A stretch of DNA of 64,000 nucleotides from Lepidodermella squamata (Eukaryota > Animalia > Gastrotricha), in contig JBLDXI010000009.1 of NCBI GenBank assembly GCA_047495785.1, positions 4,092,001 through 4,156,000 of the forward strand, written 5' to 3'. The position numbers were made by a program, and so were the translations under genes. Position 1 is the first letter of the stretch, and each line of letters opens with the position of its first letter. Below the pieces are notes generated by a model. That model did not search any database. It was not told where the DNA came from and saw nothing but the letters and a program-made list of their open reading frames with translations. Of this stretch, positions 39,660 through 45,612 are shown piece by piece.

Positions 39660-42600
39660 ATGTTAGCCATTTTACTGCTGTTCAACCTGGTCAAAGCAGA
39701 TCCGTCCGTTCTCCACGCCCGTGAGTTTAATAATCCGGGCTTTGATTTATCGAATTTCTCAACACTGCGGGCTGTTCAATCGCAATGGGGCCAAACCGAC
39801 ATGCCTTCCCTTGCGAATCGGCTATATTACAAATTATTCGTTGTTTCTAACTACAATCCACATTTAAGGCCGAGGGGTCGTTATAATAAGCGAGTTTTAG
39901 AGGTAAAACTCGGCCTAAAATTGACTCAACTTCTCGATGTTGTAAGTTTAATTTCTAGCGATTTTTCTCGAATTTTTATTCAATTTTTGTTCAAGGATGA
40001 GAAAAATCAAATAATGACAACAAACGTATGGCTACGTCAGGAATGGTTTGACGAACAGCTACAATGGGACCCGACAGAATTTGGTGGCATTAAGGAGCTA
40101 TTTATCCCGCCGGAAAAATTATGGCTACCTGATATTGTGTTGTACAACAACGCGGATGGAAATTACCAAGTGACTTTGATGACTAAAGTCGCGTTGGCCT
40201 ATACTGGGCAAATCGTGTGGGAACCGCCCGTTATCTACAAAAGCAGCTGCCCTATTGATGTCGAGTATTTTCCATACGATCAGCAACATTGCCACATGAA
40301 ATTCGGAACGTGGACTTATGACGGTAAATTTTCTCGAAAATCCAAAATTTTTCAGAATAAATTTTCGTTGAACCAAATTTCCAAACTGGTTAACAGTCTC
40401 AATTCCGAATAATTTTGTTAAATTAGGATTAAGCTCTCAAAATTATGGACAGTCCTTGTAAAGAAAATTGCGTAGAATTTATTTGACATTTATTTGGTTT
40501 TTCTAATAATTAAACTTGAAATGTCCAAAAGTTGAAATAAAAGCTCTTACGAGCAAATTGAATATCCGAAATTTGGTTCCATTGAAAGTAGGACCCGTCG
40601 CTATTTTTATTTTTATTTTATTTTTTTATTTTTTATTTTTTAAATTCTGATCTATTTGTTTAGGTTTGGAGGTTGATTTGAGGCATACACAAGACCCTGG
40701 GAACGACACAGCCATTAAATACGTTGAAGACGCGATTGATATTTCGAGTTATTACGAATCCGTAGAATGGGACTTGTTAGCTGTCCCAGCCGAGCGTCAT
40801 TTAATCAAATACGAATGCTGCGAAGGTATGAATTATTTTTCCAAAAAATGAGAAAAAACTCAAATTTCGTTCTTTTTCAGAACCTTATATTGATATAACT
40901 TACAATATCACGATTCGTCGTAAAACTCTGTTTTATACGATAAATTTGATCGTTCCATGTGTTGCGATCTCATTTTTGACCGTTTTGGTCTTCTATCTGC
41001 CCTCGGACAGTAATGAAAAAGTAAAATATCTCAAAATTGCAGTTGCATTTTTTGAGTTTTTCAATTTTTTCTATAGGTTACTCTCTGCGTGTCGATTTTG
41101 CTCTCGTTGACTGTGTTCTTTTTGCTGCTCGCCGAAACCGTTCCGCCGACGTCACTCGTCGTGCCGCTAATCGGGAAATATTTGCTTTTCACAATGTTCC
41201 TCGTCACGCTTTCAATCGTGCTAACCATTATTGTGCTCAATGTTCACTTTCGATCGCCTGAACTCTACAAAATGTCGCCGTGGGTGCAAATCGTCTTCAC
41301 GGTCATGCTGCCAAAGTGAGCTCTTAATTCTTATACTTGTTACCTAGAATAGCATTATTTTATTTTCTATCAAAAATGGACGGGTCGCAATTATGCAAAT
41401 TGAAAAAGGGTCTTGAAGTGAGTGTCTCCCGACTCTGCTTATTTATCTTCTAACAAGCGAACAGGAACGTTTGAAATATCAATTCAGGTATCAATTTATA
41501 AATGAGTAATTGCAATGTCCACATTCCAAAAAATCTGAAAACTTAAGTGCCTGAAATTCGCGAGTCCGAGAAGAAAACATTGATTGAAATCATTTACATC
41601 AAATTTTCGATAAACGCTCCCATCGGAAACTTAGGGGAACCACAAAATCACTCTTGGTTGTAGTTGAAATTGTTGAAGCTTGCGATTGGGGAGATTTTCC
41701 AACATTTAGCATTTTGTTTCTTGAAATATCTAAAATAAAACATTTGAGAATGCAATGCTCGCCAGCGCTAACCGAACCTAGGAAATTCACCAAGTCACTC
41801 GTTCTGCCGCCCACCCCGCGAAATGAGAAATATTGATGCTTCCTTTCATCATGCGACCGCTTCGTCCTCGTAACATGCTAACATGAACCAAAGGAAATGT
41901 AATGATGCGGCACTCACTGCAAACTTTATTGATTAACGATTGGATGTTAAAGATATTAAGCAACGGATATTATAATTGATTGAAGCTTTAAATTGATGAT
42001 TCTGCCCATCTCTGGCATCTCACGCGACTCATCCGCCTCAGCTCATATTTGTCGATTGCAAGAACTACTAGGCTTTCAGGCATTTACACGACCTCATCCC
42101 CATCCAGCTGACGCAACTATAATTATAGCCACTTGGACAAAGCTGAATGCCGCGCGCCTGTTCCTGTGGCAGTTCTCGGTTGCTTGGCTGCGCTTCTGCT
42201 TGGCCGCTTTGAGCTCCGGCATTGCTGAAAATGGCTGATGAAACCTGAGCAAAATAACAGTAGAACAACATGATATTCATATATGAGCGAATAAACCTAC
42301 CAGAAGAGCTAGGATAGCTGCAAATTTAAGCATTTTCCCGTGGAGAAAAACTTGAAAATTATAGGAAGAAAACTTTAAAACGAAAAGATAGCGAATGATG
42401 TGAGATGCGCTGCTCATCTCGAAAAGATGTTCGTACTGCTGGGCAAACAAGATCGAACGCCAAACTTGAGGTGAATTCACGGACCGCTGAATGTCCCATC
42501 TTTCATGCTTCTACGCCATACTGCCATGATGATGTGAGATGCGCTACCCGTCTCGGAAAAATGTTCCTACTGCTGGGCAAATACGATTAAATGCCTAAAC

Positions 42601-44523
42601 TTGAGTTGAATTCACGGAGCACCGAATGACCCATTCTTCATGCTTCTACGCCATACTGCCGTTACTGGCACCACGTGATGAGTATTCAGCTAGCTACCTA
42701 AGAATAATTAATAGGAAGAAAATGATGAAATAAAGATGATGCTATGTTATGATGATGATGATAAATACTCATATGAAATGCTCAATTACTTCGCCTTTAC
42801 GAGTAAGCTGCACCTCAGTAGGGTTTTACCTCGTAGCTTAGAATTCAGCTTAGAATGTACCAAAACCGTTATTTGATAAGTACAGTGAAAGTTGTCTAAA
42901 CCGGGCTAAGGTCGTGCCAGGCAAAATCGTCCGGTTTAGAGAAAGTCCGAATTATTTTAAACACCGGACCGGCACGAAATACAGTGAAAGCCCGAATTTG
43001 CGCCCTCGGATTTTCCGCCAATTCGGATTTTACGCCAGGTTTTCGCGTGCCCCCCCCCCCCCCCCGGCGAAGGCAATGTAAAAGATGCTAAAGTACATCC
43101 GATTTCAAGCCACCGGATTTTACGCCAGGTTTTTTCGCGCAGCCATAGTAAGCCAAAACACATCCGATCTTACGCCAAACTCGGATTTTTGCCAAATCGT
43201 GCCAAAATTTGTATTTACGTATATAACGATATATCAGTTTCACAAGTTTATGAGTAAATATGCATGGCAAAGCACCTTAATTTTGCTAGTAAATTCATGA
43301 AACGAAGTGAGCAGCAATGCCCGCTCATGGCATAACAACTCCTCGGCAGTTTGGAATGCCCGAAAACAAATTAGATATTCAAAAGCAGCGCAAAAAGTTG
43401 GGGTGTATAGCCAATTAGCGCGCAGTTACATTCCAAAATGAAGAAGAAATAGATGCGCTAAGTTGCTTTCAAGTTTCAAGTGCGTTAAACCAAGGCGCGC
43501 GTAACATCAGCAGCGCTCGCGATTTGACGCGCCCCCATGTGGGTAACTGCTCTTTTGTTGTAGTCACCCGTGAACCGCGCGCACACTTATTATTTTTGCT
43601 TATCAATTGTGTTCACAATTGGAAGTTTTAATTTTTTTTCAAAATGTTGAGGCTACCCTTGTCGGGCGGTGCTGGCACTCTCTTCAAAATTATATGAAAA
43701 ATTGGCCTTTTATTGCATAAACCGGACTTCGAGCCCCAAATCCGTCCAGTTTATACCACCAGTCCGGTTTAGACAACAAAATTATAAAGAAAAGTCCACA
43801 CTTTCGGATGGGGCCACCCGAAATCGTCCGGTTTGAACAACTTCCACTGTGCTTTTTTTGATTATATTATTGCTTCGTATGCCACAGAGTTCTGCTAGTT
43901 TCCCGTCCAAGCGTGAAACACGACGAAGAAAGCGAGGACGAACTCGACTATGACCTCGAAAAGCTGACATCCGCCCTGAAACCTGTTCTCAACAACTTCA
44001 CGCCGATTTCCCAAACTCGCAGCAAAACTTCGCACAACTTCGACGCGAGTCACATTGTCGATCGCGGGCCGATTCGGGGTGCGAGGCGCAGCAAGTCTGA
44101 AATGGCGTCGCTGTGGTCGAGCCGGCGAACGGCGAGCCACGAAACGAACGATCTCGGCCATTTCGAGGGGACGTTTTTCAACGAATCTGGCGTTGAATCC
44201 TGCGTCTACGGCGAGTTTTACAACCAGTTTCCAGAAATTCGGCAGGCTGTCGCTGACATCGAAGATATTGCAGATCGGTTCAAGAGCATGAGACATCACA
44301 CAAGGGTAAGTTAGATTCGTTAGAACTTGAATTTCATTATTTTTGTGTTTCGAAGCTGAAAGAGGAGTGGAAGTATGTGGCGATGGTGCTAGATCGGCTT
44401 CTACTTTACATTTTCTCGATATCTTGTCTTCTCGGGTTTTTCGGCATCATTCTGCAGGCGCCAACAATTTACGACAGCCAAACTAGTGATTTGATCAGCA
44501 AATTCCGACATGAATTCACTTGA
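39660..44523 (+). CDS. Nicotinic acetylcholine receptor alpha subunit, cation-selective type; large intron 41316-43887
   Basis: [13 protein letters not shown], Cys-loop [66 protein letters not shown]. Confidence 0.95.
42068..42333 (-). CDS. Secreted 4-Cys toxin/AMP-like prepropeptide, copy A (69 aa); exons 42333-42301 and 42244-42068; nested in the nAChR intron
   Basis: [69 protein letters not shown]; 56-nt GT-AG intron; downstream AATAAA near 41925-41930. Confidence 0.8.
42883..43849. mobile_element. Non-autonomous Tc1/mariner(pogo)-type DNA element in the nAChR intron
   Basis: Imperfect terminal inverted repeats CAGTGAAAGTTGTCTAAACCGG / CCGGTTTGAACAACTTCCACTG, 5' flanking TA, internal GTCCGGTTT and CGGATTTTACGCC subrepeats. 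Confidence 0.6.
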
Positions 44524-44814
44524 TGAACGAATTCTTAGCTATAAAATGTTGGCAAGTTATTACGACTTGTGTTATTTTTTTGCTGTGCCTTTTCTTCATG
44601 CTTTATTTACAATTTATACAACAACACGTTTTCACTCGATCTGTACTGCGATTTGACTGAACGAAGGAAGATCTCTTTAAAATGTTACCTATGCCGTTTC
44701 TGCTATCTTCACTCAATAAAACTGTTTACATCGAATCGGGAATGTTTTCCGCAGTGTATGCTTCGGTCTTGAGAGGCCTTGCTGAAATTCTTCCAGGGCA
44801 ACTTCACAATACTA

Positions 44815-44886: not shown

Positions 44887-45340
44887 GGAACCAAGATCGA
44901 GTCCTTTCTTGGCCCCGCGGTTGTTTTACCAATCCACCGATTTGCAAAGGAAAAAATTGGGAGGCTGGGAGTGTCAGCTAGATTGCAACGGTCGATTCAC
45001 GTTACTACTTCTTCACCTTCACAAATTCAGTCGTGCGCCAAAACTGAGTTCAACAAAAGCTGTATGCTGTGTCTATTTTAGGCGAGTCGTTAGGCGATGT
45101 CGGCCACCCCGCTAAATGAGAAAAATTTCCCGTCCATCCTACAACCGCTTCTTAACTGCTTGCTAGCGTCAACCAAAGGAAATGTTGTGATGCATCACTC
45201 ACAGCAAACTTTATTATGGACGTTAAAGATATTAAGCAACTGATGATATAATTTATTGAAGCTTTTAATTGATGATTCCGCCTATCTCTGGCATCTCACG
45301 TGACTCATCCGCCTCTGCAGGCATTTGACGATTGCAGCTA

Positions 45341-45612
45341 TCAGGCTTTCACGCACGTACATGTTGTGACACCACCTGTTGTGACGCAACTGCTCTTATA
45401 GACGGGATATCTGCAGTCTGCACGAGCGGGGCCGCGCGCCTGTGCCTGTGGCAGTTCTCGGTTGCTTGGCTGGGCTTCTGCTGCTCGGTCAGCGGCAACA
45501 TTGCTGAAAATGGCTGATGAAACCTGAGCAAAATAACAGTAGACCAACATGATATTCATACATGAGCGAATAAACCTACCAGAAGAGCTAGGATAGCTGC
45601 AAATTTAAGCAT
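45341..45612 (-). CDS. Secreted 4-Cys toxin/AMP-like prepropeptide, copy B (71 aa); exons 45612-45580 and 45523-45341
   Basis: [71 protein letters not shown]; same 56-nt intron and flanks as copy A. Confidence 0.8.

What the first reader, a model, noticed from the sequence alone, without database searches (positions are those of the whole stretch)
42068..45612. Toxin/AMP-like prepropeptide family with conserved flanks and hypervariable mature peptides
Seen: two spliced genes within a duplicated ~1.1-kb block (about 41680-42850 and 45020-46045). The signal exon is identical, the 56-nt intron differs at only 2 positions, and the UTR and promoter are nearly identical. The mature peptides [27 protein letters not shown] and GPARADCRYPVYKSSCVTTGGVTTCTCVKA share only about 11 of 30 aligned residues around a C-X7/8-C-X8-C-X-C frame. 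The propeptide ends in EQAR or AQAR. Known: signal/pro/mature organisation with mature-region hypervariability typifies conotoxin and spider-toxin families, and ExxR matches the spider processing-quadruplet motif; two-disulfide cationic peptides also include beta-hairpin antimicrobials. Inference: an undescribed venom or defence peptide family under diversifying selection.
Basis: partly seen in the sequence, partly recalled or inferred. Interest (0 to 1): 0.82.

Follow-up and report, generated by a model that had tools for sequence, protein, structure and literature searches.

The report
Unknown hypervariable hairpin peptide gene family
An animal, likely a small worm, carries several copies of a spliced gene for a predicted secreted 27-30-residue four-cysteine hairpin peptide with no relatives found, and the copies differ sharply only in the predicted active part, as would fit a defence peptide, though no activity has been tested.

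Summary
Two intact two-exon genes (A 42333-42068, B 45612-45341, minus strand) encode 69/71-residue precursors with identical exon 1, a 56-nt intron (2 differences) and C-X7/8-C-X8-C-X-C mature peptides. One RNA-like run shows the splice junction and both mature ends. A DNA-like run shows at least two more sequence types with other mature regions. A third, truncated copy lies at 47117. The mature region differs at 22 of 57 nt against 44 of 433 in noncoding flanks (p=2.5e-7), but dN/dS is about 0.3-0.4, so diversifying selection is not shown; gene conversion of the flanks fits too. No homologue or fold match was found. AlphaFold predicts a beta-hairpin with a variable tip. A dynein tree puts the host among spiralians and rejects grouping with chelicerates or a gastropod. 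The spider PQM fits only A, so conotoxin or spider-toxin membership fails. Best reading: a lineage-specific secreted defence peptide family, organised like mussel MgCRP-I (45%). Venom 20%, signalling or reproduction 25%. The scan's earlier findings showed nothing similar on other DNA.

The parts
42301..42333 (-). Gene A coding exon 1 (first 11 residues of the signal peptide)
   Evidence: X1 cover at 42290-42325
42245..42300 (-). Gene A phase-0 intron, 56 nt, GT..AG
   Evidence: in X1 zero depth at 42254-42289 and a contig whose loose end at 42245 continues with the exon 1 end
42068..42244 (-). Gene A exon 2: rest of signal, propeptide ending EQAR, mature peptide, stop
42071..42151 (-). Gene A predicted mature peptide, 27 aa, C-X7-C-X8-C-X-C, net +3, about 2.98 kDa
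   Evidence: hairpin model; cleavage site inferred
41925..41930 (-). Candidate polyadenylation signal of gene A (AATAAA), matched in B at 45210-45215
42395..42660 (.). Tandemly duplicated 134-nt upstream element of gene A; single copies upstream of B and C
45580..45612 (-). Gene B coding exon 1, identical to A
45524..45579 (-). Gene B intron, 56 nt, 2 differences from A
45341..45523 (-). Gene B exon 2: rest of signal, propeptide ending AQAR, mature peptide, stop
   Evidence: an X1 loose end carries the gene B coding end and 3' UTR start
45344..45433 (-). Gene B predicted mature peptide, 30 aa, C-X8-C-X8-C-X-C, net +3, about 3.09 kDa
   Evidence: hairpin model
47085..47306 (-). Copy C: upstream element and exon 1 (1 nt different) with a GT donor; no exon 2 or 3' UTR found in the window; probably truncated
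41805..42850 (.). Duplicated block 1 (pairs with about 45098-46046); lies inside an intron of a + strand nicotinic acetylcholine receptor-type gene
   Evidence: right-hand end read by eye
45098..46046 (.). Duplicated block 2, just downstream of the receptor gene's last exon
   Evidence: right-hand end read by eye

Best explanation
These spliced genes encode precursors of predicted secreted two-disulfide beta-hairpin peptides that likely serve host defence by binding a variable target on microbes or other organisms. Shown: two intact genes, splicing and transcription in one RNA-like run, conserved flanks, a divergent mature region, and further family types in a DNA-like run. Inferred steps: the signal peptide (about 18-22 residues) routes the precursor to secretion. 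A protease cuts after the single Arg of Q-A-R and removes a roughly 20-residue, near-neutral pro piece. The 27-30-mer folds into a C-terminal hairpin, braced by C2-C3 across the strands and C1-C4 tying back the N-terminal arm. The hairpin tip and N-terminal arm differ most between copies and likely set target specificity. Specific binding seems more likely than general membrane lysis, because the net charge is only +3 and B's hairpin is Ser/Thr-rich, not amphipathic. The family grows by local duplication. The mature region diverges faster than its flanks through positive selection, gene conversion of the flanks, or both.
For: Gene models and boundaries. Spliced junction and cover of both mature ends in X1; spliced receptor exons show X1 is RNA-like. 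Identity ends at the Arg-Gly boundary in A versus B, and an independent X2 contig stops aligning at 42152, the last base of that Arg codon. Mature divergence 22 of 57 nt versus 44 of 433 noncoding, p=2.5e-7; conserved pro blocks 2 of 75. All four Cys are kept, and 3 of 3 Cys codons in the ungapped block are identical. Both peptides give the same hairpin, strands 12-19 and 22-29, pLDDT 91.6 and 79.7. Two-disulfide hairpins with C1-C4/C2-C3 pairing and asymmetric Cys spacing are known worm antimicrobials (PMC10745061, PMC10608444). Flatworms lack the canonical lophotrochozoan AMP groups and are expected to have undiscovered ones (PMC10414684).
Against: No activity, tissue or induction data. Net charge is only +3 with 11-13% Lys/Arg, there is no gamma-core motif, and no kB-like site lies upstream of A, B or C, though fewer than one would be expected by chance. 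No BRICHOS domain or dibasic site as in worm hairpin AMPs. dN/dS is below 1 in the pairwise tests, with pS 0.65 > pN 0.32. The closest organisational analogue, MgCRP-I, showed no antimicrobial, antifungal, insecticidal or cytotoxic activity (PMC4558851). Disulfide pairing and cleavage site are inferred, not reported by any tool. Expression rests on contigs of one run.
Confidence: 0.45

Rival explanations
1. The peptides are signalling, recognition or reproductive ligands (pheromone, seminal or allorecognition peptides) or gland-secretion components. Each paralog's variable tip binds its own receptor in the same species.
For: Low charge and non-amphipathic faces suit receptor binding. Rapid lineage-specific divergence of small secreted peptides is also typical of reproductive proteins (general knowledge, recalled). 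MgCRP-I shows this layout can go without toxic activity (PMC4558851).
Against: No dibasic sites, no repeated peptide copies and no C-terminal Gly amidation signal as in typical neuropeptide precursors. Endogenous ligands usually conserve the mature part, not the pro part (recalled).
Confidence: 0.25
2. The peptides are venom or predator-deterrent toxins acting on ion channels or receptors of prey or predators.
For: Signal/pro/mature layout with a monobasic Arg site and conserved Cys codons resembles conotoxins, where both Dn and Ds rise in the mature exon (PMC3862624). Two-disulfide hairpin channel toxins exist in sea anemones (BBH, PHAB; PMC6627431). A weak Pfam Defensin_4 (BDS-type) score for A: E=0.031, 14.6 bits.
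Against: That score is below the 20.6-bit cutoff and absent for B. The host is rejected as a chelicerate or gastropod relative. The PQM fits A only (PMC6832493 definition). No other toxin-like gene with this Cys pattern is in the window, and nothing points to a venom gland.
Confidence: 0.2
3. On the evolutionary question: the sharp contrast comes mainly from gene conversion homogenising promoter, exon 1, intron and pro region between old paralogs, or from block replacement in the mature region, not from positive selection.
For: Synonymous divergence in the mature block is also high (pS 0.65). One-ratio ML gives dS 1.2-1.4 and omega 0.30-0.37, and fixing dS at the flank level is rejected (p about 1e-4). 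Ten changed codons carry 21 of the 22 differences. B's hairpin contains a 9-nt direct repeat, seen.
Against: A two-class site model fits as well with dS 0.11 and a very fast class (lnL -135.83 either way), though omega hit the bound and the test of omega>1 gave p=0.066. Only 1 of 9 unchanged-residue codons has a synonymous change. Conotoxins show the same joint rise of Dn and Ds alongside positively selected sites (PMC3862624).
Confidence: 0.4
4. The reading frames are an artefact of a duplicated non-coding or decaying element.
For: No homologue in any database. Copy C is truncated.
Against: Spliced junction in X1, intact frames with indels in multiples of three, four conserved Cys, and further types with the same Cys-x-Cys-x-Lys-Ala-stop ending.
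Confidence: 0.03

Closest known systems
MgCRP-I cysteine-rich peptides of Mytilus (PMC4558851)
   Same: Lineage-restricted multigene family; conserved signal and short pro region; hypervariable, mildly cationic mature peptide; conserved Cys codons; pseudogene copies; non-venomous spiralian host; function open.
   Different: MgCRP-I has six Cys (C-C-CC-C-C), a dibasic site, four exons and proven positive selection. Here there are four Cys, a monobasic Arg, one coding intron, and the conserved/variable border lies inside one exon.
Two-disulfide beta-hairpin antimicrobial peptides (tachyplesin, capitellacin, alvinellacin, HfBRI-25; PMC10608444, PMC10745061)
   Same: Four Cys, predicted hairpin, inferred C1-C4/C2-C3 pairing, about 3 kDa, cationic.
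   Different: No BRICHOS prodomain or dibasic site; lower charge (+3); strongly asymmetric X7/8 versus X1 spacing with an N-terminal arm; no sequence similarity found.
Conotoxins, especially A-superfamily gene layout (PMC3862624)
   Same: Signal/pro/mature precursor; one intron with pro and mature parts in exon 2; raised Dn and Ds and codon-sized indels in the mature part.
   Different: Host is not a gastropod; intron 56 nt rather than kilobases; no Pfam conotoxin match.
Spider venom peptides with PQM processing (PMC6832493)
   Same: Propeptide ends in a single Arg; EQAR in A fits the motif.
   Different: AQAR in B does not; the pro region is near neutral, not acidic; no six-Cys knot; host is not a chelicerate.
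Sea anemone BBH and PHAB two-disulfide hairpin toxins (PMC6627431)
   Same: Two disulfides on a hairpin; PHAB is asymmetric.
   Different: BBH lacks inter-strand disulfides; PHAB is 17 residues without regular strands; no sequence or fold hit.

Membership tests
Spider venom peptides (PQM-processed) | Arg at -1 with at least one Glu at -2 to -4 | tested here: inconclusive
   Met in A (EQAR), not met in B (AQAR); definition from PMC6832493
Spider venom peptides (PQM-processed) | Arachnid host | tested here: not met
   DNAH3 tree places host in Spiralia; AU p=0.0024 against grouping with chelicerates; one gene, long branch
Conotoxins | Conoidean gastropod host | tested here: not met
   AU p=0.0028 against grouping with Haliotis; outside the mollusc clade
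Conotoxins | Signal sequence or framework matching a known superfamily | tested here: inconclusive
   No Pfam or PDB hit for exon-2 or mature peptides; no conotoxin-specific library, and exon 1 was not in the query
Conotoxins / venom peptides | Venom gland expression and activity on ion channels | not testable with these tools
   Only contigs of one RNA-like run, tissue unknown
BRICHOS-derived polychaete hairpin AMPs | BRICHOS prodomain followed by a dibasic site | tested here: not met
   Precursors are 69 and 71 aa, no Pfam domain, no dibasic site
Two-disulfide beta-hairpin AMPs (as a functional class) | Antiparallel hairpin with two disulfides | tested here: inconclusive
   Hairpin predicted for both; pairing inferred from strand register only
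Two-disulfide beta-hairpin AMPs (as a functional class) | Strongly cationic, amphipathic | tested here: inconclusive
   Net +3 in both; A has a hydrophobic tip, B's faces are Ser/Thr/Val-rich
Two-disulfide beta-hairpin AMPs (as a functional class) | Antimicrobial activity | not testable with these tools
   Needs synthesis and assay
Gamma-core cysteine-stabilised AMPs / CSab defensins | GXC or CXG triad within a Cys-bounded loop | tested here: not met
   Three patterns, none match in A or B; triad confirmed in PMC11395145, exact spacing limits recalled
BDS/APETx beta-defensin-like toxins (PF07936) | Score above the Pfam cutoff, six Cys | tested here: not met
   14.6 bits versus cutoff 20.6 for A, no hit for B, four Cys only
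MgCRP-I | C-C-CC-C-C array and dibasic cleavage | tested here: not met
   Four separate Cys, monobasic Arg
Hypervariable secreted cysteine-rich prepropeptide families (broad kind) | Conserved signal/pro, variable mature region, fixed Cys, several copies | tested here: met
Hypervariable secreted cysteine-rich prepropeptide families (broad kind) | Positive selection in the mature region | tested here: inconclusive
   omega 0.30-0.37 one-ratio; mixture test p=0.066; only two sequences

The most novel reading that the evidence does not exclude
This is the first venom or defence toxin family of a microscopic spiralian lineage near flatworms. It uses a new two-disulfide 'arm-tied hairpin' scaffold whose tip is re-rolled between paralogs by localised block replacement inside a single exon, while gene conversion keeps everything around it uniform, giving a combinatorial set of receptor-binding ligands.
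Probability: 0.15. Interest if true: 0.75.

Novelty: new variant of a known kind. Interest (0 to 1): 0.48.

Why it matters
Secreted effector peptides of flatworm-like spiralians are poorly known, and flatworms lack the usual lophotrochozoan AMP groups (PMC10414684). This family gives short, synthesisable candidates with an unmatched cysteine spacing. The conserved signal/pro sequence is a ready bait for the rest of the family. Because the conserved/variable border falls inside one exon, next to a nearly unchanged intron, it is also a clean case for testing selection against gene conversion as the source of mature-peptide hypervariability. Interest is limited because such families are common in invertebrates and no function is shown.

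Tried and rejected
No whole genome is held, so paralogs could not be counted genome-wide. Homologue searches found nothing: word-indexed search with A exon 2, HMMER profile of both exon-2 peptides against 1.84 billion representatives, 0 hits at E<=0.001, metagenome contigs, 596 pattern matches and none confirmed, ESM Atlas twice (blank shows neither novelty nor absence), PDB sequences with best E 3.5 and 8. Fold searches were run for B's model only: Foldseek best E 4.1, VIA-align best Z 2.1, uninformative for a 30-residue hairpin. The run search listed no holder on record as RNA; X1 is a guess supported by spliced contigs. X1 fold-back joints (41930/42026, 42068/42176) were treated as library or assembly artefacts. 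An alternative splice acceptor 17 nt downstream was rejected by reading its frame (no Cys frame) and by the X1 junction. A kB-like scan was empty but underpowered. The AU test under the mixture model did not finish; the reported AU values use LG+G4 with 12 of the 17 rows. A shorter 1021-column tree put the host beside chelicerates with weak support 0.66; the 3223-column trees overturned this. No complex prediction with the neighbouring receptor was run, since adjacency alone gives no reason. Paper searches listed no description of this family, but they match words, not sequences. Supplements were not read; the helminth AMP-like lists of PMC10414684 could hold similar peptides. The scan's earlier findings held no look-alike.
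Full report
Observation. On the minus strand, gene A has coding exon 1 at 42333-42301, a 56-nt GT..AG intron and exon 2 at 42244-42068. Gene B has the same layout at 45612-45580, 45579-45524 and 45523-45341. Exon 1 is identical and the intron differs at 2 of 56 positions. Upstream, 14 of 189 aligned nt differ; downstream, 28 of 188. The precursors are 69 and 71 residues, with a hydrophobic core at 7-17, shared small-residue sites at 18 and 22, and no dibasic site. 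So the signal peptide spans both exons; no dedicated signal predictor was available. The predicted mature peptides follow Q-A-R, are 27 and 30 residues long, have Cys spacing 7/8-8-1 and net charge +3. A six-frame scan finds this Cys pattern before a stop only at these 2 places. A third copy of the upstream element and exon 1 lies at 47306-47085; no exon 2 or 3' UTR was found near it. Gene A sits antisense in an intron of a nicotinic acetylcholine receptor-type gene, and B lies just past its last exon (translations; receptor motifs recognised from memory).

Expression and family size. Two runs hold the region. X1 behaves as RNA: one contig joins two receptor exons across a 55-nt intron. On gene A it has zero depth at 42254-42289, and a contig ending at 42245 continues with 10 letters of the exon 1 end, which is the predicted junction. 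X1 covers A's mature region with 0-1 differences, and a loose end carries B's coding end. The junction contig probably comes from A, since X1 shows no B-type letters at 42215-42219. X2 behaves as DNA and holds A's exon 2 unchanged. It also holds a 464-nt contig with the same flanks, an in-frame 15-nt deletion in the pro region, intron changes found in neither A nor B, and a mature region that does not align between 42048 and 42152. A further contig aligns to the 3' UTR with 20 differences, and the loose end at its border translates to a Cys-x-Cys-x-Lys-Ala-stop ending absent from the window. That makes at least two more types. They may be paralogs or alleles, because X2 carries divergent haplotypes. 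All this is contig evidence from one RNA-like and one DNA-like run, and X2 may be the window's own source.

Divergence. The last 19 mature codons align without gaps; the first 8-11 residues need gaps and were left out. In that block 22 of 57 nt differ, against 44 of 433 noncoding nt (Fisher p=2.5e-7; against the 3' flank alone p=2.7e-4). Two conserved pro blocks, chosen by eye and omitting a 6-7-residue variable patch, differ at 2 of 75 nt. Hypervariability is therefore real. Selection is not shown. Counting gives pN 0.32 and pS 0.65. One-ratio ML gives omega 0.30-0.37, not different from 1 (p 0.07-0.17). A two-class model fits dS 0.12 with a very fast class, but omega hit the bound and the test gave p=0.066. 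Positive selection on about half the sites, and gene conversion of flanks or block replacement, both remain open. Conotoxins also show raised Ds in the mature exon (PMC3862624, passages), and conversion is proposed for myticin-C (PMC3164099, passages).

Structure and relatives. AlphaFold2 on single sequences gives the same fold for both: strands 12-19 and 22-29 with an extended N-terminal arm (B pLDDT 91.6, pTM 0.45; A with 3 pro residues 79.7, pTM 0.34). The register places C2 opposite C3, so C1-C4/C2-C3 is inferred. The most variable residues form the hairpin tip, hydrophobic in A and Thr/Gly-rich in B. No relative was found by word search, full HMMER profile, metagenome scan, ESM Atlas, PDB sequence or fold search of B. 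Pfam gave only a sub-cutoff BDS-type score for A. No gamma-core triad is present (PMC11395145, passages).

Host. The window's axonemal dynein DNAH3 is about 70% identical to mollusc, annelid and nemertean proteins and 84% to unnamed P0122. With 3223 columns it falls in Spiralia (SH-aLRT 100 under LG+F+G4 and LG+C20 PMSF), beside Macrostomum under simple models and unresolved with Macrostomum and Dimorphilus under the mixture. AU tests on 12 rows reject grouping with chelicerates (p=0.0024) and with Haliotis (p=0.0028). This is one gene on a long branch, and no gastrotrich, rotifer, nematode or tardigrade was in the tree. A flatworm- or gastrotrich-like worm is a guess (relationship of the two from PMC6468455, abstract start only). 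An earlier scan note called this genome nematode-like (e1-10291658); the dynein tree does not fit that.

Mechanism and comparison. The best reading is a secreted defence peptide family: signal removal, cleavage after a single Arg, and a disulfide-braced hairpin whose variable tip binds a foreign target (0.45). The independent X2 type stops aligning exactly at that Arg, which supports the cleavage site. Against plain membrane lysis are the modest charge and B's polar faces. The spider PQM needs a Glu at -2 to -4 (PMC6832493, passages); A has one, B does not. Worm hairpin AMPs use BRICHOS and dibasic sites (PMC10745061, passages and section 2.1; PMC10608444, passages), absent here. Anemone two-disulfide hairpin toxins differ in fold (PMC6627431, passages). 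The nearest organisational match is mussel MgCRP-I, which had no detectable toxic or antimicrobial activity (PMC4558851, passages); this keeps signalling or reproductive roles (0.25) and venom (0.2) open. Flatworms lack canonical lophotrochozoan AMP groups (PMC10414684, passages), which makes lineage-specific defence peptides plausible.

Verdict. A real, apparently undescribed peptide family with an unmatched cysteine spacing, belonging to a familiar kind (hypervariable secreted cysteine-rich prepropeptides). It is not a member of spider-toxin, conotoxin, BRICHOS-AMP, gamma-core or MgCRP-I families. Word searches of the paper library listed no description; supplements were not read. Interest 0.48; new variant of a known kind.

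Noticed in passing
window about 5600-13300, minus strand: Tandem cluster of about four short-intron nicotinic acetylcholine receptor-like genes (Cys-loop channel subunits), separate from the receptor gene at about 39650-44500 that hosts gene A.
   Followed up: no
window 17675-35801, minus strand: Intron-poor axonemal dynein heavy chain DNAH3, with reading frames up to 1044 aa; used to place the host. A small unrelated + strand gene (29577-30514) lies inside one of its introns.
   Followed up: partly
window about 42883-43853: Non-coding element with terminal inverted repeats and very high summed X2 depth, a likely miniature DNA transposon, in the same receptor intron as gene A.
   Followed up: partly
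window about 46050-47000: High-copy repeats directly downstream of copy C's donor site, where its exon 2 would be expected; a possible cause of the truncation.
   Followed up: partly
window 47773-48738, + strand: Intronless trypsin-family gene (PF00089, E 1e-50) with a signal peptide and a hydrophobic C-terminal tail; its catalytic His and Ser motifs look altered, so it may be inactive. X2 has two haplotypes here with 34 differences in about 360 nt.
   Followed up: no
window 50304-50965: 12/36-nt tandem repeat array of about 650 nt.
   Followed up: no
window 54381-54605: Perfect 99-nt inverted repeat with a 27-nt spacer.
   Followed up: no
window 58275-61829, + strand: Two tandem ectonucleotide pyrophosphatase/phosphodiesterase-like genes, about 72% identical (family recognised from memory).
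   Followed up: no
window 14080-17079, minus strand; 2517-4124, + strand: A GH31 alpha-glucosidase-like gene, and a single-exon leucine-rich-repeat/Ig membrane protein (families recognised from memory).
   Followed up: no
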